Assembly (NCBI GenBank): GCA_013298875.1
Contig: JAAFJH010000001.1
Location: 7,030-71,029, forward strand
Length of the DNA stretch: 64,000 nt
Reading direction: 5' to 3'
DNA from: Synechococcales cyanobacterium bin2.concoct.b11b12b14.033
Lineage (GTDB): Bacteria; Cyanobacteriota; Vampirovibrionia; Caenarcaniphilales; Caenarcanaceae
The position numbers were made by a program, and so were the translations under genes. Below, piece after piece: positions 3,059 through 47,338 of the stretch; the stretch's first letter is position 1, and every line of letters starts with the position of its first letter. The notes beneath the pieces were generated by a model. It searched no databases, was not told the origin of the DNA, and saw only the letters and a list, made by a program, of their open reading frames with translations.

Positions 3059-4378
<1,320 letters not shown>

Positions 4379-38509: not shown

Positions 38510-39964
38510 ATGTTTAAGAACATGGCAATCTTAAAAGAAGTATGTATTGAAAAATTTCGAGATATAAAAGATCTAATTTTACCAATTGGTGAGCGGCTTA
38601 CAATAATAGCTGGGCGAAATGGAACTTCCAAAACAACAATTTTAGGAATGCTAGCACATGGGTTTACTTTTGATGCAGAACATAAAACATTATTTGGATC
38701 TGCTTTTCATACAGACTTAAAAGAGGTACTCCAGCTAAGTGATGAAGAGATTCAAAGTACAAAAATTAATATAAATCTCCACTCTAAAGAAAGACCATTT
38801 ATTCAGCTAATACCTACTTATCATAAAGAGGAGGATAGACACAGAATTGTTGCAAGAGGAAAAGCGGAAGACTCAGAGGGAAAGCTTAAGGCAATAAGTT
38901 CAAAACATTCTTGTCCAGTAATTTACTTAACTCTTGGCAGATTAAGTCCACTATTTGAGCTTACATCTGCCGATCCAGATCATTCTTTTCAAGAGGAAAG
39001 CTTAAGTGAGGATGAGCTAAAAATAGGCCAACACTTACATAAAGCTTTAATTAACATTGATGAAGAGCTTATCAGTTTTGAAAGACTGACATCAAAGATA
39101 AAAACAAAAAGTGGAAAGAATACCAGAAAAATAGCTGCGGGAACGAAGAAGTATGGGAAATATGGCATGTCCGCAGGACAGGATACTATTGTTCAAATTG
39201 CTTTTGCCATCCTTTCCTTCAAGCGATTAAAAGAAAAAACTCAAGATTATAAAGGAGGTCTTTTATTAATTGATGAAGTTGAAGCGACCTTGCATCCATC
39301 TGCCCAGAGAAGTCTTATTCAAATACTAAATCAATATTCCAGAGAGTATAGCATGCAAATTGTTTTAACTACCCATTCATGGTCATTTCTTCAAGACAGT
39401 CGTAAGGAAAAATCGCAGATCAACTATATTACAAAAGATGAAGGGGAATTTAAATTACTTACAGATATGCAGGGGATAGAAGAAGATTTCTTTTCGAGAG
39501 CATTTGATCAAAGAAAATCAAAAATACAAATACCTGGTTTTTGTGAAGATAAATCTGCAAAGAAATTCTTGGAACTCATTCTTTCAAAAGAAAATAAGGA
39601 GCAAATTCATCTTGGAGTATTGGGTACACGTGATGTTATTGTGCAGCTGGCAAAGAATTTCTTTAAGTGTAAATTGAATCCTTGCGTATGGTTCTTGGAT
39701 GGAGATCAATTGAGATCTAAAAACTTAGAAAAGGGAGTACTCGTTTTACCTTCTAATAGGCAAGTTTGCCCAGAATTGGAAATTTACGAGTTTCTAGTTG
39801 GCTTAGAATCTTCAGATTCTTTGTGGCAATTAATTAGCTATACAAAATCTCAAATGTTTCACAAGTCAAATAGTGAGCCATTAAAGTCTAGGCCAGAAAA
39901 CAAAGCGAAAAGATTATGGGAAGATATCTCAAATACAAGTCGTAAAGTGAACATAAGACTTTAA
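38510..39964 (+). CDS. OLD-family ATP-dependent nuclease (ABC/AAA_21-type ATPase fused to a C-terminal Toprim domain)
   Basis: 484 aa; Walker A GRNGTSKTT, ABC-signature-like MSAGQ, Walker B LLLIDEVEATLHP, H-loop VLTTHS; then Toprim-like glutamate (GFCEDKSAKKFLE) and DxD (WFLDGDQ). Confidence 0.75.
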   Translation: MFKNMAILKEVCIEKFRDIKDLILPIGERLTIIAGRNGTSKTTILGMLAHGFTFDAEHKTLFGSAFHTDLKEVLQLSDEEIQSTKININLHSKERPFIQLIPTYHKEEDRHRIVARGKAEDSEGKLKAISSKHSCPVIYLTLGRLSPLFELTSADPDHSFQEESLSEDELKIGQHLHKALINIDEELISFERLTSKIKTKSGKNTRKIAAGTKKYGKYGMSAGQDTIVQIAFAILSFKRLKEKTQDYKGGLLLIDEVEATLHPSAQRSLIQILNQYSREYSMQIVLTTHSWSFLQDSRKEKSQINYITKDEGEFKLLTDMQGIEEDFFSRAFDQRKSKIQIPGFCEDKSAKKFLELILSKENKEQIHLGVLGTRDVIVQLAKNFFKCKLNPCVWFLDGDQLRSKNLEKGVLVLPSNRQVCPELEIYEFLVGLESSDSLWQLISYTKSQMFHKSNSEPLKSRPENKAKRLWEDISNTSRKVNIRL

Positions 39965-40082
39965 GTGGAAACGCAATATTAACTAAAATTATCAAGGAAT
40001 GGATAAAGCGGAATCAAGCGATAGTAGACGTATTTAATAAAGATTTTCAACAAACAATTATAAAAATCCAAAGGGCTAAAAA

Positions 40083-40949
40083 ATGAGCTTTGATTCACCT
40101 CTTCGATATCCAGGCGGCAAAGGTCGTCTAACAAACTACATTAAATCAATTTTTGAACTGAATGATTTAGTAGGTGGTGAATATGTTGAACCTTATGCTG
40201 GTGGTGCAGGAATAGCCTGTTCACTTTTACTTTCTGGTCATGTATCTAAAATTCACCTAAATGATTTAAACAAGTCTATTTATGCTTTTTGGTACTCAAT
40301 AATGAATAGTACTGATGAATTTTGTAAATTGATTTTTGACACTGAACTAACTATTGAGGAATGGTATAAACAACGAGAAATTCAAAAAGATTATGATTCA
40401 TGGCTTTCACTTGGTTTCTCTACATTTTTCTTAAATCGTACTAATCGATCTGGAATTATTACTGCTGGTGTAATTGGAGGATTGAAGCAAGATGGAGAAT
40501 GGAAATTAGATGCTCGATTCAATAAAAGCAATTTAATTTCAAGAATTGAAAAACTTGCGCAATATAAAAAACAAATTAAGTTATCTAATAAAGACGCTGT
40601 TATTTTTGTGAAGGAAACTATCAAAAAACTTCCTGAGAAATCTTTGATCTATTTTGATCCACCTTATTATATGAAAGGGCAAAAACTGTATGCAAATTAC
40701 TATGAGCATCATGATCATCTTCAAATCTCTTCTTTAATTCAAGAAAAAATAACGCAAAATTGGATTGTTTCTTACGATTATGTTCCTGAAATTGCAAAAA
40801 TGTATAAAGTTCAGTCAAAAGTTTATGATTTAAGTTACAGTGCTGGTAATCGTTATAAAGGTAAAGAAATAATGTTTTTTTCTCCCAATTTAAAGAAACC
40901 CACAACTATAAGCAAATCAAGCCTTTTGGAGAGAAAGAAGTTTAGCTAA
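40083..40949 (+). CDS. dam: DNA adenine methyltransferase, D12 (Dam) class
   Basis: 288 aa; N-terminal YPGGKGRL (Dam AdoMet/FxGxG-region equivalent), catalytic DPPY (IYFDPPYY); 118 bp downstream of the OLD-like gene, same strand. Confidence 0.85.
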   Translation: MSFDSPLRYPGGKGRLTNYIKSIFELNDLVGGEYVEPYAGGAGIACSLLLSGHVSKIHLNDLNKSIYAFWYSIMNSTDEFCKLIFDTELTIEEWYKQREIQKDYDSWLSLGFSTFFLNRTNRSGIITAGVIGGLKQDGEWKLDARFNKSNLISRIEKLAQYKKQIKLSNKDAVIFVKETIKKLPEKSLIYFDPPYYMKGQKLYANYYEHHDHLQISSLIQEKITQNWIVSYDYVPEIAKMYKVQSKVYDLSYSAGNRYKGKEIMFFSPNLKKPTTISKSSLLERKKFS

Positions 40950-43790
40950 ATATTTACCAGTAAAAGATTGTTTATTTTTTATAATTTGTATTGGGGTACC
41001 TTCGGCGATAATTTCCCCGCCAGCTTGTCCACCTTCAGGCCCCAAATCAATGATCCAATCAGCTTGTTTAATAACATCCAAATTATGCTCAATAATTAAA
41101 ACAGTATTTCCCGCCTCTGCTAATTTGTGTAGTACTAACATTAATTTTTCAATATCATACCAATGCAAGCCGGTAGTCGGCTCATCCAAAATATAAAGCG
41201 TTTTGCCAGTATGTCTGCGTGATAATTCGGTGGCCAATTTTATGCGCTGAGCTTCGCCACCAGAAAAGGTAGTTGCAGATTGACCTAATTGTATATAACC
41301 CAAGCCTACTTCTTCTAAAGTTTTAAGCTTATTATAAACCGCTGGAATTGACTCAAAGACATTGTTAGCTTGGCTTACCGTCAGATTGAGTATGTCGGAG
41401 ATCGAATAGCCTTTATATTTTACTTCTAAAGTTTCTTGATTATATCTTTTGCCATCACAGACTGCACATTTCACAAAAACCGAAGGCAAAAAATTCATTT
41501 CAATTTCTAAATGTCCTTGCCCATTACAAGCCTCACAACGCCCACCTTTGACATTAAACGAAAAACGCCCTGGGCCATAACCTCTTAGCTTAGCGTCTGA
41601 CATAGTAGCAAAAAGCTCTCTGATTGGTGTGAAAGCCCCCGTATAAGTAGCCGGATTAGAATGGGGAGTTCTTCCAATTGGGCTTTGGTCAATTTCAATT
41701 ACTTTGTCTATATTTTCCAGTCCTTCAATTAAATCAACACCCACTGGTTTTTGGCGATTTTTGAGTAAGCAACTTTGCAAATAAGGAAAAAGCAAATTCA
41801 TAATTAAACTTGACTTGCCCGAACCAGAAACTCCTGTAACCAAAACCATTTTTCCAAGCGGAATTTCAGTACTTACATTTTTTAAATTGTTTAAATGAGC
41901 ATTTGTAATTTTAATTGATTGATTATTTCCTTCTCGAGGTTTAATTGGGCCTTTTAATTGCCATTCTCCTGATAAATATTTGCCCGTTAAAGATTCTTCG
42001 GTTGAACAAATACTTTCAAAACTGCCGGTTGCTACTATTTCTCCGCCTTCTCTTCCAGCTTTTGGCCCAACATCAATAATCCAATCACAAGCTCTAATGG
42101 TATCTTCATCGTGCTCAACCACTAAAACTGTATTTCCCAAGTTTTTTAATTTTTTTAAAGTTTCGATTAAGCGGTCATTATCTCTTTGGTGCAGCCCAAT
42201 GCTAGGTTCATCCAAAACATATAAAACTCCCGATAAACCAGACCCAATTTGTGTCGCTAATCTAATTCTTTGGGCTTCTCCGCCCGATAAAGTTGATGCA
42301 CCACGAGACAAGTTTAAATAATTTAAGCCCACATCTTTCAAAAACTGCAAACGATTTTTAATTTCCAGAATAATTCTTTCCGCTACTTTTAAGTCAAATT
42401 CACTAACTAAAGAAGGTATTTTCTCAAAAAACGCTAAAGTATCATCAATGCCTAAACTTGTTATTTCATTAATTGATAGATCGCCAAATTTAACTGCCGA
42501 AGATTCTTTACGCAGACGAGAACCATTACATTCCGGGCAAGTCTGAAATGACATATAACCTTCGAGGTCGCTTTTGGCTTTGTCATTACTGGAGCTGCAA
42601 GCTTTTTGATATTTTTTGTTTAAATTATTAATTACTCCTTCAAAGGGCATATTAAAAGTTAAAAGATCGTCCCCATCAAAAGAATCATAACTTAATTCAA
42701 TTGGCTCATCGGAACCGTATAAAACAGTTTTTCTAATTTCTCGGCTCAAGGATTTCCAGGGCGTGGCGGGTTTAATTTTAAAAGCTTTGCAAACCGAATT
42801 TAATAATTGTACATAATAATTAGTGCTTGACTTTGCCCATGGCACAATACAATTCAGCAAAGCCATATCTGTATTTGGAATTAATTTAGAGAGGTCAAAT
42901 TCTTGGGTATGTCCTAATCCATGGCACTCTGGGCAAGCACCTTCTGGGCTATTAAAAGAAAATAATTTGGGTGAAAGAGGCGGCAAACTTCCATGTCCTT
43001 GCGGGCAAGCTAAATGCTCCGAAAAGTGTAGCTCAGAAGTAATTTCTTGATCGTCATTCACAATTGCAAATTTAGCAAAGCCATTTCCTTTACGCAGAGC
43101 CAAACCCAAACTATCTGCTAGGCGAGAACGGTTTTCCAATTTGACACTTAAACGGTCAATGACAATTTCGATATTATGTTTTTTATTTTTAGTTAATTTA
43201 ATTTCCTCATCCAATGAATAAATTATTTCATTTACCTTAACTCGCAAAAATCCTTCTTTTTTTAATTTGCCAAATAAAGTTGTATGGTCACCTTTTTTCA
43301 GTTCAGCTACTGGAGCTAAGATTAATCCTTTTTGATCTTCGGCCTTGCTAAAAACTTCATCAATAATTTGATCAATACTTTGTTTGCTTACAGCAGTGCC
43401 ACAAATTGGGCAAAATTGTTTTCCGACACGTCCAAATAAAAGCCTTAAGTGATCGTAAATTTCGGTTACTGTTCCAACGGTTGAACGTACATTATGGCTA
43501 GCTGACTTTTGGTTAATAGCAATGGCGGGGCTAAGTCCTTCAATTGAATCAATGTCTGGTTTATCAACTTGGCCTAAAAACTGCCGAGCATAAGAAGATA
43601 AAGATTCGACATAACGGCGCTGGCCTTCTGCAAAAATGGTATCAAAAGCTAAAGAACTTTTGCCAGAGCCAGAAACACCTGTTATAACCACCAATTGGTT
43701 TTTAGGAATGCAAACATCAATATTTTTTAAATTATGTTCTCTTGCTCCAGTAACTTTAATCCATTCTTGGTTTTTCCCATCAGCAGTCAT
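40917..43790 (-). CDS. uvrA: Excinuclease ABC subunit A
   Basis: 957 aa; two ABC ATPase modules (GVSGSGKSSL twice), zinc-finger cysteines, UvrB-binding and insertion domains in canonical order; last 11 codons overlap dam's last 11 codons on the opposite strand. Confidence 0.97.
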   Translation of the reverse strand: MTADGKNQEWIKVTGAREHNLKNIDVCIPKNQLVVITGVSGSGKSSLAFDTIFAEGQRRYVESLSSYARQFLGQVDKPDIDSIEGLSPAIAINQKSASHNVRSTVGTVTEIYDHLRLLFGRVGKQFCPICGTAVSKQSIDQIIDEVFSKAEDQKGLILAPVAELKKGDHTTLFGKLKKEGFLRVKVNEIIYSLDEEIKLTKNKKHNIEIVIDRLSVKLENRSRLADSLGLALRKGNGFAKFAIVNDDQEITSELHFSEHLACPQGHGSLPPLSPKLFSFNSPEGACPECHGLGHTQEFDLSKLIPNTDMALLNCIVPWAKSSTNYYVQLLNSVCKAFKIKPATPWKSLSREIRKTVLYGSDEPIELSYDSFDGDDLLTFNMPFEGVINNLNKKYQKACSSSNDKAKSDLEGYMSFQTCPECNGSRLRKESSAVKFGDLSINEITSLGIDDTLAFFEKIPSLVSEFDLKVAERIILEIKNRLQFLKDVGLNYLNLSRGASTLSGGEAQRIRLATQIGSGLSGVLYVLDEPSIGLHQRDNDRLIETLKKLKNLGNTVLVVEHDEDTIRACDWIIDVGPKAGREGGEIVATGSFESICSTEESLTGKYLSGEWQLKGPIKPREGNNQSIKITNAHLNNLKNVSTEIPLGKMVLVTGVSGSGKSSLIMNLLFPYLQSCLLKNRQKPVGVDLIEGLENIDKVIEIDQSPIGRTPHSNPATYTGAFTPIRELFATMSDAKLRGYGPGRFSFNVKGGRCEACNGQGHLEIEMNFLPSVFVKCAVCDGKRYNQETLEVKYKGYSISDILNLTVSQANNVFESIPAVYNKLKTLEEVGLGYIQLGQSATTFSGGEAQRIKLATELSRRHTGKTLYILDEPTTGLHWYDIEKLMLVLHKLAEAGNTVLIIEHNLDVIKQADWIIDLGPEGGQAGGEIIAEGTPIQIIKNKQSFTGKYLAKLLSLQKA

Positions 43791-43957
43791 AATTTATTTA
43801 TATAATTCAAGTCAATAAGTAAAATTATATAGTTTTTTAGATTTTTTCAATGTTAAAATGTGTTGATTGAATTACAAACTTGACATATTGATTGTTTTTT
43901 AGCACACTTAGCTTATGCTTTGCTGCGTACTGAAAAAAGGCTAACCTGTTAAATAAC

Positions 43958-45652
43958 ATGGCTAACGAAAGAATTACAGAAAATATTGTGAGGAATCTTT
44001 TAAGGGATAAAGGGTATTATGATAATGATAAAATCATAATTGAAGAACAATCATCTGCCAACCCCCAAATAAACAAATTACTGAAATTAGCCTCTAAGAG
44101 TGGTACGGGAAAAGGTTATCCTGAATTTATTATATCCTTTAAAAACAAACCTAATGACCTTATAGTCATTGAATGTAAGGGGAGCATTACATATCACGAG
44201 AGTAAGGATAGAGAGCAATATAAGAATTATGCAGTTGACGGGGTCTTGCTGTATGCCTCTTATTTGAAAGATTCGTTTAACGTAACAGCTATTGCGGTAA
44301 GTGGTGAAAATGAGAGAGAGAAAAAAATATCATCTTTTATTTGGCTGAGAGAGCATTACACCTATAAAAACATTCAGGATAAAATACTATTAGCTCCTGA
44401 TGAAATTTCCAATATAATAGTAGAGCAATCCAAACCTATTTCAGAAGATGAGTTAATAAAAAAGGCTATTGAATATAACTCCTTTTTACACAAATACTCT
44501 ATACCCGAAGTTGAAAGATGTACCCTGATAAGCTCAATATTGATAGCGTTACAAGACAAACCTTTTCTAAGCAGCTACAAAGAATATACAAACAACAGGG
44601 ATTTAATAGAGAACTTAATTGAGGCTTGCAAGCGTGTTTTAAAAAGTAAGGAATTAGAAGATAGAAAGACAGAAGTAATCATTGATGAATACTCAAAGTT
44701 TAAAAACAACAATGGTTCATTTAACTCTCAGACATTCTATAATAAAAAGACTAAAAGCGACGAAGCAAACACTATACTTAGAGATTTTATAATTCTCATT
44801 AATGAAAATATACTTCCTTATATCAATAATAGTGAATTTGATGTATTAGGTAAGTTCTATACACAGTTTATAAGATATGCAGGTAGCGATAAAAAAACGG
44901 GGTTAGTCTTAACACCTACTCATATAACAGATTTATTTTGTGAAATAGCCGATTTAGGTATAGATGATATAGTTTTTGATGAGTGCTGCGGTACTGCAGG
45001 TTTTTTAGTCTCAGCTATGAATTATATGCTAAAGAAAGCAGGGAACAACTCTGAAAAGAAGAAAATAATTAAGTCATCTCAATTATTGGGTATTGAAGAT
45101 CGTTCTGATATGTTTTCTCATGCTTGCTCTAATATGATGATGAGGGGGGACGGCAAAAGCCACATTCTTTACGGCGACTGTTTCAAGGAAGAAAATAAAA
45201 GTATTATTAGAGCAAATAAACCGACAAAAGCCTTTTTAAATCCTCCATACCAAGATGGGAATGCAGCCGAACAATTAGAATTTATCGAAAATGCTTTAAG
45301 TTGCCTAGTAAAAGATGGGCTCTGTATTGCCATTTGTCAAATGTCAACAACTGTTTCGAGTAATAAGGATGTAATAGAAGTTCGGGAACGGATATTGGCC
45401 AACCATACATTAGAAGCCACATTTTCAATGCCTATCGATTTGTTTCACCCCGTCGGAGTTAATACGAGCATTTTGATCTTCAAGGCACATCATGTGCATC
45501 CCCAAAGGAAAAAAACATTTTTTGGGTATTTTAAAAACGATGGTTTTGTGAAAACCAAAAATCATGGAAGGGTAGATAAGAACAATCAGTGGGACGAAAT
45601 TAAAAAAACTTGGCTTAATGCTTACATTAATAAAGAAAGCATTGTAGGATAA
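43958..45652 (+). CDS. N6-adenine DNA methyltransferase (gamma class, HsdM/Eco57I-like) with N-terminal restriction-endonuclease-like domain; no adjacent HsdS/HsdR
   Basis: 564 aa; N-terminal PEFIISF...LIVIECKG resembles a (P)D/E...(D/E)xK nuclease or HsdR-N-like core. The methyltransferase has motif I VFDECCGTAGFL, then motif IV NPPY (FLNPPYQDG); it has no target-recognition domain and no specificity subunit nearby. Confidence 0.7.
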   Translation: MANERITENIVRNLLRDKGYYDNDKIIIEEQSSANPQINKLLKLASKSGTGKGYPEFIISFKNKPNDLIVIECKGSITYHESKDREQYKNYAVDGVLLYASYLKDSFNVTAIAVSGENEREKKISSFIWLREHYTYKNIQDKILLAPDEISNIIVEQSKPISEDELIKKAIEYNSFLHKYSIPEVERCTLISSILIALQDKPFLSSYKEYTNNRDLIENLIEACKRVLKSKELEDRKTEVIIDEYSKFKNNNGSFNSQTFYNKKTKSDEANTILRDFIILINENILPYINNSEFDVLGKFYTQFIRYAGSDKKTGLVLTPTHITDLFCEIADLGIDDIVFDECCGTAGFLVSAMNYMLKKAGNNSEKKKIIKSSQLLGIEDRSDMFSHACSNMMMRGDGKSHILYGDCFKEENKSIIRANKPTKAFLNPPYQDGNAAEQLEFIENALSCLVKDGLCIAICQMSTTVSSNKDVIEVRERILANHTLEATFSMPIDLFHPVGVNTSILIFKAHHVHPQRKKTFFGYFKNDGFVKTKNHGRVDKNNQWDEIKKTWLNAYINKESIVG

Positions 45653-45722
45653 AAATATTGAATTAGGCCAAAAAACTAGTAATGGCCAATCTCAATGGGT
45701 TATTATCGGTAAACAATTAAGT

Positions 45723-45989
45723 TTATTGTGAGTCTGTTTCTACTGTGAAATTATGACTTTCTCCATTTATGTGAATTGTTCCTTTATCTTCTCCATTAAA
45801 TTGGGGATCATAACCATTTTTTGTAAGTGCATTAATCTCAGTAGTATTTAGAGAATCTCCCGCTTTAATTCGTCTCAAAGCCGTTGTTAAATCATTCCTG
45901 GAGCTTGTATCTATTCTATTTTTTCCAGCATAGCTTCTTTCTGTTCTACTTTTTACTTGAAGTGTAGGAATTATATTTGTAATTCTCAT
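45723..45989 (-). CDS. Hypothetical small protein
   Basis: 88 aa ORF with no recognisable motif; may be non-coding. Confidence 0.25.
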   Translation of the reverse strand: MRITNIIPTLQVKSRTERSYAGKNRIDTSSRNDLTTALRRIKAGDSLNTTEINALTKNGYDPQFNGEDKGTIHINGESHNFTVETDSQ

Positions 45990-46342
45990 TTATTTGTGTT
46001 GTATAAAATTTGTTCTACTATTCTATAAGAGGTTGATGATTTTTTCAAATAGACTCAACTATAATCTCAATATTTAATCTTCCGTCCGAGCCACTGGTTG
46101 AAATAATGCGTTTGATTTTGCCATTAATTGGGCTTTTACAAATTATTTCTTGTGGTAGTTTAAGCGAAATTGAAGACTTTTAAATCTCTTTCTATAAGCA
46201 CTTTCTAGTTCAATAGTTGAGTAATACTTGTTCTCGGGTTTAAATTCAAATTAGCTCTCATCTTTCAACTTCTGATTAATAGATTCCCTGAACTAACATA
46301 AAGTAGTATTCACGTAACTAATAGCTAAAAATTATTTCATTT

Positions 46343-47338
46343 ATGCCTCAAAATCAGAGACTCTCGCAGTTGACTTTATTAAGTTTATCTTTATCTTTTT
46401 CACCCAGTATCATATCAATTGCAGCTTCCAACTCTTTGGCAGAAATTCAATCCGCCAGCCAAAATCAGATGATAGCCATTGCTTATGGAGAATATTATCC
46501 ACCGACTAATCATAATCATCAGCCGCAGCAACAATATTACCCAAGGCCGCAGCAAAGATATTATCCAAGACCACCCAGAAACAGATTTCCAAGTGGGGGA
46601 TATGCCACAACTCCCAGAATACCAATTTGTCCCATGCCGCCTGCTCAGCCACAACCAATGCCGCCCTTAGATGATCCACACCATCCTGTGGCTTATAAGC
46701 CAGCTATTTACCTTTATCCCGAAAAGCCAACTGAAGTTGAAGTTTTTATTGATCCGAAAATTAACTTAACTATTGATATTCCAAAATATAATCCCCAAAA
46801 AGGTTGGAAAGTTTTAGCTTATCCAAATGGCTTACTCGAAGATCTTCAATTAGAACAAACTGATCCTGAATCTTATAAAAAATATTTAAATTCAACTGGA
46901 CTAGAATATGCTTATAGTTCTGCTCTCAGAGGTACTTATCCTTATTTGTATTGGGAAGGTACTCTTATCGAAGAAGCCAGTAAAAAAACTAATGGTTGGA
47001 TAGTTTCAGACTCTGAAATCAAAACTTTTTTAAGTGCAAGACTTGATGAAATGAATTTCAGTCGTATTGAGAAAAAAGACTTTTTAGATTATTGGGTCAT
47101 TAAAATCAAAGAAAAACAAAAACCTTTCTATTGGATTTCTTTCGTTTTAACTAAAGAATTTGACCAAAAGCACCCCCTAAAAATTGTGCCTAAGCCAGAT
47201 TCAATCATGAGAGTATTAATTGAAGTAGCTCCATTGGATGAAAAGCCAAGTAAATTACCTGAACCCCAAAAATTGGAAAGTATTATTCGTAAAGGTTTTA
47301 CTGTTTTAGAATGGGGGGGTTATTTCGTGAAGAAATAA
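46343..47338 (+). CDS. Hypothetical secreted protein with proline-rich YYPRP-repeat linker
   Basis: 331 aa; signal-like N-terminus, Q/P-rich tract with two YYPRP(Q/P) repeats, about 230-aa globular C-terminal domain of unknown function. Confidence 0.45.
   Translation: MPQNQRLSQLTLLSLSLSFSPSIISIAASNSLAEIQSASQNQMIAIAYGEYYPPTNHNHQPQQQYYPRPQQRYYPRPPRNRFPSGGYATTPRIPICPMPPAQPQPMPPLDDPHHPVAYKPAIYLYPEKPTEVEVFIDPKINLTIDIPKYNPQKGWKVLAYPNGLLEDLQLEQTDPESYKKYLNSTGLEYAYSSALRGTYPYLYWEGTLIEEASKKTNGWIVSDSEIKTFLSARLDEMNFSRIEKKDFLDYWVIKIKEKQKPFYWISFVLTKEFDQKHPLKIVPKPDSIMRVLIEVAPLDEKPSKLPEPQKLESIIRKGFTVLEWGGYFVKK

What the first reader, a model, noticed from the sequence alone, without database searches (positions are those of the whole stretch)
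43958..45652. Solitary fusion of a nuclease-like N-terminal domain to an HsdM-like N6-adenine methyltransferase lacking any specificity subunit
The 564-aa protein has a gamma-class N6-adenine methyltransferase core (motif I DECCGTAGFL, then NPPY) like HsdM, but no target-recognition domain. There is no hsdS or hsdR nearby. Its first 270 aa carry a PEF...IVIECKG core reminiscent of PD-(D/E)xK or HsdR-N-terminal nuclease folds.

It could be a decayed type I or type IIG remnant, or a compact methyltransferase-nuclease enzyme of an undescribed kind. It sits divergently from uvrA, next to the OLD-Dam pair.
Basis: partly seen in the sequence, partly recalled or inferred. Interest (0 to 1): 0.5.

Follow-up and report, generated by a model that had tools for sequence, protein, structure and literature searches.

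The report
Truncated BcgI-like restriction-modification subunit gene
This gene encodes the nuclease-plus-methyltransferase subunit of a well-known two-part restriction enzyme (BcgI-like, type IIB), but a deletion has removed its docking tail and the partner gene that reads DNA, so it is most likely a recently disabled remnant, not a new kind of enzyme.

Summary
A 564-aa ORF (43958-45652, +) has an N-terminal PD-(D/E)xK nuclease domain, a helical connector and a gamma-class N6-adenine MTase core. It has no TRD, and no hsdS or hsdR lies in the 64-kb window.

It is not an undescribed compact enzyme. It matches PADLOC's fused restriction-methyltransferase model end to end (E 2.9e-107) and aligns with annotated BcgI-like A subunits (phage "bcgIA"; phage phi-42 Sau42I).

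Intact relatives (up to 89% identity) are either about 610 aa or about 780-830 aa with a fused TRD. In the 610-aa class, 34 of the 34 downstream ORFs tested are overlapping or abutting PF01420 S genes (36 of 38 such loci have one).

Homology in the window stops exactly at codon 564. The missing ~46 residues, conserved in the relatives, are by position the helical tail that the literature says docks the S subunit. No trace of tail or S gene remains.

The retained part is pristine: 0 changes at 159 near-invariant sites, dN/dS 0.036. So the loss is recent, or the stub is still used.

A close relative (94% UvrA) carries a different, intact RM+S system in the same slot beside uvrA.

Verdict: an ordinary, degenerate member of a known family. 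Low interest.

The parts
43958..45652 (+). 3'-truncated gene for the RM (A) subunit of a BcgI-like type IIB restriction-modification system (564 codons plus stop).
   Evidence: PADLOC REase_MTase_IIG PDLC03608, E 2.9e-107, residues 4-562 on profile positions 8-565 of 614. 83% nt / 89% aa identity to an intact 610-aa homologue. Aligns with annotated bcgIA and the phi-42 Sau42I RM ORF.
43958..44392 (+). PD-(D/E)xK nuclease domain (residues ~1-145) with catalytic-motif residues E56, E72 and K74.
44396..44827 (+). Multi-helical connector (residues ~147-290), equivalent to the HsdM N-terminal helical region.
   Evidence: The AF2 model shows helices 147-250 and 273-284. The HsdM structure 2okc aligns over about 435 columns, i.e. 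connector plus MTase. The domain order R-H-M matches that described for BcgI-like RM subunits (PMC11997821).
44837..45649 (+). Gamma-class N6-adenine methyltransferase core (residues ~294-564), with motif I D341-L350 and motif IV N428-Y431.
   Evidence: Pfam PF02384, E 4.6e-22, residues 294-552. PDB HsdM matches: 2okc E 1.2e-14 and 4.9e-22 with a profile.
45647..45652 (+). Deletion breakpoint: the last homologous codon GGA (G564), followed at once by TAA.
   Evidence: The codon-by-codon alignment with L002 and L001 holds through G564 and then shows no similarity. blastn similarity ends at 45642 (L002) and 45648 (L001).
45653..46342 (.). AT-rich, apparently non-coding DNA where the A-subunit tail and the S gene would be expected; no remnant of either.
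   Evidence: tblastn and profile HMMs for the tail and for S subunits find nothing. There are no relatives among the fetched loci apart from one 38-nt blastn match to L042 (E 7e-4), taken as chance. It holds only an 88-aa ORF on the minus strand with no family hit.

Best explanation
The gene encodes the A (restriction + modification) subunit of a BcgI-like type IIB R-M system. In intact systems, two A subunits flank one HsdS-like B/S subunit (A2B). S reads a bipartite DNA site, the MTase domains of A methylate adenines in it, and the PD-(D/E)xK domains of A cut on both sides of unmodified sites. The published description of RM+S type IIB enzymes has A docking onto S through a lone C-terminal helix that packs against the S conserved-region helices. 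In this genome a deletion begins immediately after codon 564. It removed the ~46-residue C-terminal segment that, by position, corresponds to that helix, together with the whole downstream S gene. What remains is an open, undamaged reading frame for nuclease + connector + MTase, with no DNA-reading subunit nearby and no means of docking one. The most likely state is a recently inactivated remnant with no sequence-specific restriction or modification activity. It sits in a slot next to uvrA where R-M cargo differs between close relatives. Shown here: family membership, domain architecture, intact catalytic motifs, the truncation point, absence of S within 64 kb, and lack of sequence decay. Inferred: that the missing segment is the docking helix, loss of activity, and recency of the deletion.
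Against: The retained 564 codons show no decay: 0 deviations at 159 positions that are >=97% conserved (homologues average 1.5), dN/dS 0.036 against the closest intact relative, and no excess of lineage-specific amino-acid changes (26 vs 18; 7 vs 9). This fits a recent deletion, but it fits continued selection on the stub equally well. An S gene or a second BcgI-like system elsewhere in the genome could not be searched for. The sequence appears to come from a metagenome-assembled contig (the identical protein is recorded on one 90-kb NCBI contig), and the junction could not be confirmed in independent data. Loss of activity was not tested experimentally.
Confidence: 0.7

Rival explanations
1. 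The tail-less A subunit is still functional and under selection. For example, it could supply free nuclease domains in trans to another BcgI-like A2B complex encoded elsewhere in the genome, or work with an S subunit through contacts other than the C-terminal helix.
For: The ORF is intact and pristine. In vitro, free BcgI A protein activates DNA-bound A2B for cleavage (PMC3592470). BcgI-like systems clearly circulate in this lineage, since L065 carries a second type.
Against: No other BcgI-like or S gene lies in the 64-kb window. The missing segment is, by position, the element described as holding S (PMC11997821). Among 120 close homologues and 61 genomic loci, no other complete member ends just before the tail; P0035 (574 aa, on a 3.5-kb contig) ends even earlier and was not examined further. 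The allele is seen on a single contig. The L065 A subunit is only 28.5% identical, so cross-talk between the two types is doubtful.
Confidence: 0.15
2. The truncation is an assembly artefact: a chimeric or collapsed join in a metagenome contig at the strain-variable S gene. The real genome would then carry an intact A + S pair.
For: The source looks like a metagenome-assembled contig. S genes are hypervariable (mean column identity 37% in A2), and such regions often break assemblies. Homology ends abruptly, with no recognisable deletion scar or repeat. The junction was not found elsewhere.
Against: The junction creates an immediate in-frame TAA and continues into 690 bp of host-like AT-rich DNA and then ordinary host genes, with GC content unchanged across it. 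No fragment of S or tail occurs anywhere in the 64 kb. A misjoin is possible, but no evidence points to one.
Confidence: 0.1
3. A compact, self-sufficient nuclease-methyltransferase of an undescribed kind that needs no specificity subunit.
For: Only that the ORF is open, solitary and has all catalytic motifs.
Against: It is 89% identical to proteins that are invariably longer and paired with, or fused to, a TRD. Its shortness is explained by a breakpoint at codon 564. No DNA-recognition element replaces the TRD. The BcgI A subunit alone is inactive as a nuclease (PMC3592470).
Confidence: 0.03
4. An ordinary type I HsdM subunit whose HsdS and HsdR are encoded elsewhere.
For: Source databases label close relatives 'type I restriction enzyme M protein' or 'HsdM family'. 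The MTase core and connector match HsdM structures.
Against: Residues 1-145 are a PD-(D/E)xK nuclease domain with a conserved catalytic motif, which HsdM lacks. None of the inspected family loci with gene calls or annotation has an adjacent HsdR-type gene; they show A followed by S. The best models are fused REase-MTase models, not MTase_I.
Confidence: 0.02

Closest known systems
BcgI (Bacillus coagulans) and BcgI-like type IIB R-M systems with separate RM (A) and S (B) subunits, including Sau42I of Staphylococcus phage phi-42
   Same: The domain order is the same: PD...ExK nuclease, helical connector, gamma-class N6-A MTase (NPPY), C-terminal helical tail. In intact relatives the sizes also match: A about 610 aa against 637-639 aa, and S about 310-370 aa against 333-341 aa (the 637- and 341-aa BcgI lengths are from memory; the paper gives 71.6 and 39.2 kDa). 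The A and S genes overlap. The catalytic Glu, Glu and Lys align (PMC3592470; PMC11997821).
   Different: The window copy lacks the C-terminal tail and the S gene. Sequence identity to the annotated phage bcgIA-type proteins is only 31-32%, so it belongs to a different subfamily. No recognition sequence or activity is known for any member of that subfamily.
BsaXI (type IIB; cryo-EM structures 8W0P, 8W2P, 8W2Q)
   Same: It is the best whole-length structural match among fused enzymes (E 6e-16, 634 columns). The (RM)2S logic and the N-terminal PD-(D/E)xK domain are shared.
   Different: The BsaXI RM subunit is ~915 aa and has 'knob' and 'paddle' elaborations that this family lacks. According to PMC11997821, BsaXI is the exception that does not use the simple M.EcoKI-like C-terminal tail.
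Type IIG/IIL single-chain enzymes (BpuSI, DrdV, MmeI)
   Different: Those enzymes carry their own C-terminal TRD in the same chain. In the close relatives here, specificity comes from a separate HsdS-type protein or from a fused HsdS-type half.
Type I R-M methyltransferase (HsdM2-HsdS, e.g. M.EcoKI)
   Same: The connector and MTase core are homologous to HsdM. The partner is an HsdS-type subunit, docked by the M subunit's C-terminal helix (PMC11997821; PMC3592470).
   Different: There is no separate HsdR motor subunit; the nuclease domain is fused to the N-terminus of the M-like chain. The window copy has neither S nor the docking helix.

Membership tests
BcgI-like type IIB R-M system, RM (A) subunit | An N-terminal PD-(D/E)xK endonuclease domain with a conserved catalytic motif, on the same chain as the MTase. 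| tested here: met
BcgI-like type IIB R-M system, RM (A) subunit | A gamma-class N6-adenine MTase domain (motif I before NPPY) of the HsdM type. | tested here: met
   PF02384, E 4.6e-22, residues 294-552. HsdM structures are the top sequence and fold matches. DECCGTAGFL at 341-350 and NPPY at 428-431.
BcgI-like type IIB R-M system, RM (A) subunit | Sequence homology to recognised members over the full length. | tested here: met
   PADLOC REase_MTase_IIG E 2.9e-107, covering residues 4-562. tblastn to phage 'bcgIA' (91% coverage, 31% identity, E 3e-50) and the phi-42 Sau42I locus.
BcgI-like type IIB R-M system, RM (A) subunit | A C-terminal helical tail that docks the S subunit (four-helix bundle with CR1/CR2). 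| tested here: not met
   It is present in nearly every complete relative and absent here, where the protein ends at G564. This copy is therefore a truncated derivative of the family, not an intact member.
BcgI-like type IIB R-M system (whole system) | An HsdS-like specificity (B/S) subunit, encoded adjacent or fused. | tested here: not met
   34 of the 34 downstream ORFs tested in relatives are PF01420. None exists in any frame of the 64-kb window. The rest of the genome could not be searched.
BcgI-like type IIB R-M system (whole system) | Cleavage on both sides of a bipartite site, and SAM-dependent methylation of the same site. | not testable with these tools
   This needs biochemistry or methylome data. 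No member of this subfamily has been characterised, as far as my searches show.
Type I R-M HsdM subunit | An M subunit without a nuclease domain, working with separate HsdS and HsdR (SF2 motor + nuclease). | tested here: not met
   A nuclease domain is fused at the N-terminus. No HsdR-type gene lies in the window or next to the inspected relatives that have gene calls or annotation.
Type IIG single-chain R-M-S enzymes (MmeI, BpuSI, DrdV type) | The TRD is in the same polypeptide, C-terminal to the MTase, with no separate S subunit. | tested here: not met
   The window protein has no TRD. The closest relatives use a separate PF01420 protein, and about a third of close homologues have a fused HsdS-type half (PF01420) in place of an MmeI-type TRD.

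The most novel reading that the evidence does not exclude
The tail-less, S-less A subunit is not junk. It is kept as a free nuclease/methyltransferase module, for instance a trans-acting activator that supplies extra nuclease domains to another BcgI-like A2B complex in the same cell (as free BcgI A does in vitro), or an enzyme with S-independent activity. The evidence that leaves this open is the complete lack of sequence decay in the retained 564 codons.
Probability: 0.08. Interest if true: 0.5.

Novelty: new member of a known kind. Interest (0 to 1): 0.15.

Why it matters
It matters little beyond correct annotation. The finding shows that an apparently solitary nuclease-methyltransferase fusion is a BcgI-like type IIB RM subunit that lost its S-docking tail and S gene. 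Source databases label its relatives 'type I M protein' or 'N-6 DNA methylase', which hides the nuclease domain. Two modest points of wider use follow. (i) The family is widespread and uncharacterised: it occurs in Bacteroidota, Rickettsiales, phytoplasmas, CPR bacteria and DPANN archaea. It exists in split and fused forms at high identity, which could be mined for new type IIB specificities. (ii) The region beside uvrA in this Melainabacteria-like lineage seems to exchange defence cargo between close relatives. If the stub turned out to be functional, it would be a natural example of a free A subunit acting in trans, a behaviour so far seen only in vitro.

Tried and rejected

2. The 331-aa ORF downstream (46343-47338) was considered as a diverged S subunit and rejected. 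It has no Pfam, NCBIfam or PADLOC hit, a Pro/Gln-rich N-terminus, and no match to the S-subunit HMM.

3. A frameshift or point nonsense mutation (including phase variation at the A7 run at 45602-45608) was considered as the cause of truncation and rejected. No frame downstream encodes the tail.

4. I looked for repeats or mobile-element scars at the breakpoint. There is only a 25-nt, 76% inverted match (43830-43854 / 45654-45678), no better than the many chance pairs in this AT-rich DNA. The window has no distal copy of the uvrA promoter segment, unlike L065.

5. Identifying the source record failed.

6. The junction 30-mer was not found in the JGI metagenomes. Relatives of the 331-aa neighbour were not found there either, so the right boundary of the deletion could not be set by synteny.

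7. The window's own genome is not among the GTDB representatives searched (best match 76%). A genome-wide search for an S partner was therefore impossible.

8. Tests for relaxed selection (conserved-site deviations, relative rate, dN/dS) gave no signal. They cannot separate a recent loss from retained function.

Full report
**Observation.** The ORF at 43958-45652 (+) is real and encodes 564 aa.
- Pfam finds only N6_Mtase (PF02384, E 4.6e-22, residues 294-552). Motif I (DECCGTAGFL, 341-350) precedes NPPY (428-431), as in gamma-class HsdM-type enzymes.
- Residues 1-290 match no Pfam or NCBIfam model.
- The gene is divergent from uvrA (40917-43790, -). An OLD-like ATPase gene and a Dam-like methyltransferase gene lie beyond uvrA.
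- No HsdS-like sequence occurs in any reading frame of the 64-kb window. tblastn with two cognate S proteins and profile HMMs built from 34 S subunits gave all E > 0.1.
- The ten large ORFs outside the island that I scanned are housekeeping: RND pump, GltX, iPGM, LpxB, homoserine dehydrogenase, aldolase and others.

**What the protein is.**
- PADLOC gives an end-to-end match to a fused restriction enzyme-methyltransferase model: REase_MTase_IIG PDLC03608, E 2.9e-107, residues 4-562 on profile positions 8-565 of 614. Two further models of the same class also match.
- An AlphaFold2 model built on 80 homologues is confident (pLDDT 87.2, pTM 0.81). It shows three parts:
  - an alpha-beta-beta-beta-alpha-beta domain (residues ~1-145);
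  - an all-helical connector (~147-290);
  - the Rossmann-type MTase (~295-564).
- With the whole model, the only PDB entries that align over the full length are fused nuclease-methyltransferases: BsaXI RM (type IIB, 8w2p_A, E 6e-16, 634 columns), BpuSI and DrdV. HsdM structures cover only connector plus MTase.
- P55, E72 and K74 are invariant in 80 homologues, and E56 is conserved in at least 90%. E56 lies just before beta-2, and E72/K74 lie on beta-3, which is the canonical PD-(D/E)xK arrangement.

**Anchors to named systems.**
- tblastn against annotated phage genomes finds Staphylococcus phage phiSabovST1, whose homologue is annotated 'bcgIA protein' (630 aa) and is followed by an overlapping 'bcgIB protein' (333 aa).
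- It also finds the phage phi-42 restriction-modification record X94423: a 639-aa ORF plus an overlapping 337-aa ORF. [quoted passage not shown]
- In a joint alignment, P55, F57, E72 and K74 are invariant across the window protein, an intact close relative, both phage proteins, an E. coli IncK2/Z plasmid homologue and the relative genome's 685-aa protein.
- The family is thus the RM (A) subunit of BcgI-like type IIB systems.
- The published BcgI description (PMC3592470): A (71.6 kDa) carries both catalytic functions. B (39.2 kDa) is HsdS-like, and its sole function is DNA recognition. The protomer is A2B. Isolated A is a monomer without nuclease activity.

**The family's normal layout.** A search of 5.8 billion proteins returned 3,848 relatives. 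The best 120 are 59-89% identical and fall into two length classes:
- about 610 aa;
- about 780-830 aa, often with a C-terminal PF01420 (HsdS-type TRD).

Evidence on the short class:
- For three of the four closest 610-612-aa relatives (P0002, P0004, P0006), the next gene overlaps the A gene by a few bases and encodes a 339-355-aa PF01420 protein.
- Across 61 loci from named genomes, 36 belong to the short class. Of these, 32 have an abutting or overlapping downstream ORF; three have only short, offset ORFs (L011, L044, L057) and one has none (L063).
- All 34 downstream ORFs tested (those 32 plus L001 and L002) match PF01420.
- The family occurs in Bacteroidota, Rickettsiales, phytoplasmas, Nitrospirales, Patescibacteria and DPANN archaea, as well as on plasmids and phages. 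This distribution is typical of a horizontally mobile R-M system.

**What is wrong with the window's copy.**
- Nearly every complete relative continues beyond the residue equivalent to G564 with a conserved segment, LSV..(D/E)EWCAEAYMETDYS..F....Y.. The exceptions fit recoded UGA in Gracilibacteria/Patescibacteria loci (not checked) or contig-end fragments.
- The window protein stops at G564.
- At the nucleotide level it matches L002 (83% identity) and L001 (77%) from the start codon up to 45642-45648. The codon alignment holds through GGA (45647-45649), TAA follows, and all similarity then ends.
- Neither the tail nor an S gene is detectable in any frame downstream or elsewhere in the window.
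- This is therefore a deletion or replacement, not a frameshift or a point nonsense mutation.
- The BsaXI structural paper states that type IIB 'RM + S' enzymes such as BcgI end in a lone helical tail that forms the four-helix bundle with CR1 and CR2 of the S subunit, as in M.EcoKI (PMC11997821, section 29).
- The window's gene has therefore lost both the DNA-reading subunit and, by position, the element that would dock one.

**State of the remnant.**
- The retained 564 codons are undamaged. None of 159 positions that are at least 97% conserved in the family deviates, whereas homologues average 1.5 deviations.
- dN/dS against the closest intact relative is 0.036, with dS near saturation.
- Lineage-specific amino-acid changes are balanced: 26 vs 18 with one outgroup and 7 vs 9 with three.
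- So either the deletion is recent relative to the 11% protein divergence, or the stub is still under selection. These data cannot tell the two apart.
- Other short family members lose the opposite end: P0052 and P0053 lack the nuclease motif but keep the tail. Among 120 homologues and 61 loci, no other complete member ends just before the tail. P0035 (574 aa, on a 3.5-kb contig) ends slightly earlier and was not examined further.

**Genomic context.**
- UvrA places the host near Candidatus Caenarcaniphilales (Melainabacteria), at 70-72% identity to named entries. One metagenomic contig carries a 94%-identical UvrA.
- That relative (L065) shares only uvrA and about 80 nt of upstream sequence with the window (87% nt identity, window 40916-43868).
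- Beyond that point it carries a T5orf172 gene, a 685-aa nuclease-MTase fusion (28.5% identical to the window protein, with its own PDF...IENK motif), a 359-aa HsdS (PF01420, E 4.9e-20) and a weak IS200-like ORF.
- Direct repeats in L065 lie near the ends of that island, among them copies of uvrA 5' and promoter fragments.
- The other flank of uvrA also differs: the window's OLD-like + Dam-like pair (PADLOC PD-Lambda-5_B, E 6e-121) is absent from L065.
- The uvrA neighbourhood thus behaves as a variable defence locus, and the truncated gene looks like a leftover of cargo turnover.

**Mechanism and likelihoods.**
- Best explanation (0.70): an inactivated remnant of a BcgI-like type IIB system. 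Without S it has no sequence recognition and therefore no specific methylation or cleavage. The protein may still fold and bind SAM.
- Rival 1 (0.15): the stub is used, for example as a free A subunit that donates nuclease domains to another A2B complex, as BcgI A does in vitro (PMC3592470).
- Rival 2 (0.10): a metagenome misassembly at the hypervariable S gene.
- Rival 3 (0.03): an S-independent enzyme of a new kind.
- Rival 4 (0.02): an ordinary HsdM, refuted by the nuclease domain.

**Novelty and verdict.**
- The kind of system is known (BcgI, Sau42I, BsaXI and others) and is already modelled in PADLOC. This is a degenerate new member in an uncultured lineage.
The 'undescribed compact enzyme' alternative is not supported.
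- Interest is low (0.15).

Noticed in passing
window 38510-40949: An OLD-family ATPase-Toprim gene (484 aa) is followed by a Dam-like D12 methyltransferase (288 aa). The methyltransferase matches PADLOC PD-Lambda-5_B end to end (E 6e-121). Its 3' end overlaps the 3' end of uvrA convergently (40917-40949). The pair is absent from the 94%-UvrA relative L065, so it is probably an acquired defence cassette.
   Followed up: partly
L065 3900-10100 (relative of the window's host): The same uvrA-divergent slot holds T5orf172, a 685-aa nuclease-MTase, a 359-aa HsdS and a weak IS200-like ORF. Direct repeats lie near the ends of this island: a 125-nt repeat at 97% (3912 / 9099), and copies of uvrA 5'/promoter fragments at 4196/10065 and 4889/9950. 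This suggests site-directed cassette insertion next to uvrA.
   Followed up: partly
P0003, P0009, P0010 and others versus P0002, P0004, P0006: The family exists in a split form (A ~610 aa plus an overlapping S gene with two PF01420 stretches) and a fused form (780-830 aa, A joined to a ~220-aa extension about the length of one TRD, PF01420 in about half of those listed). The two forms are up to 87% identical to the window protein. Fusion or splitting of RM and S has therefore happened repeatedly among close relatives.
   Followed up: partly
P0052 (517 aa, 393-kb contig) and P0053 (544 aa, 23-kb contig): These family members lack the N-terminal nuclease motif but keep the S-docking tail. They are possibly methyltransferase-only derivatives, the opposite decay route to the window's copy. 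They could also be miscalled start codons; I did not check this.
   Followed up: no
L019 and L047 (Candidatus Phytoplasma mali NC_011047): Two copies of the fused form sit at mirror-image positions, 27.8-39.5 kb from each end of the 601,943-bp chromosome and in opposite orientation. That would place them inside the terminal inverted repeats of this chromosome, which I recall is linear.
   Followed up: no
L045, L046, L048, L049, L051, L052 (Gracilibacteria / Patescibacteria): Under table 11 the A gene appears to stop 7 codons after the G564 equivalent. This would fit UGA read as glycine (code 25) in these lineages, in which case it is not a truncation. I did not inspect the stop codon or retranslate.
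   Followed up: no
window 46343-47338: A 331-aa ORF with a Pro/Gln/Tyr-rich repeat region (PQQQYYPRPQQRYYPRP) has no Pfam, NCBIfam or PADLOC match and no relatives in the JGI metagenome scan. It is an orphan gene immediately right of the deletion junction.
   Followed up: partly
L001 7059-7997: An IS1595-family transposase gene ends 4 bases before the start of the intact A gene in one relative, which fits the family moving with insertion sequences.
   Followed up: no
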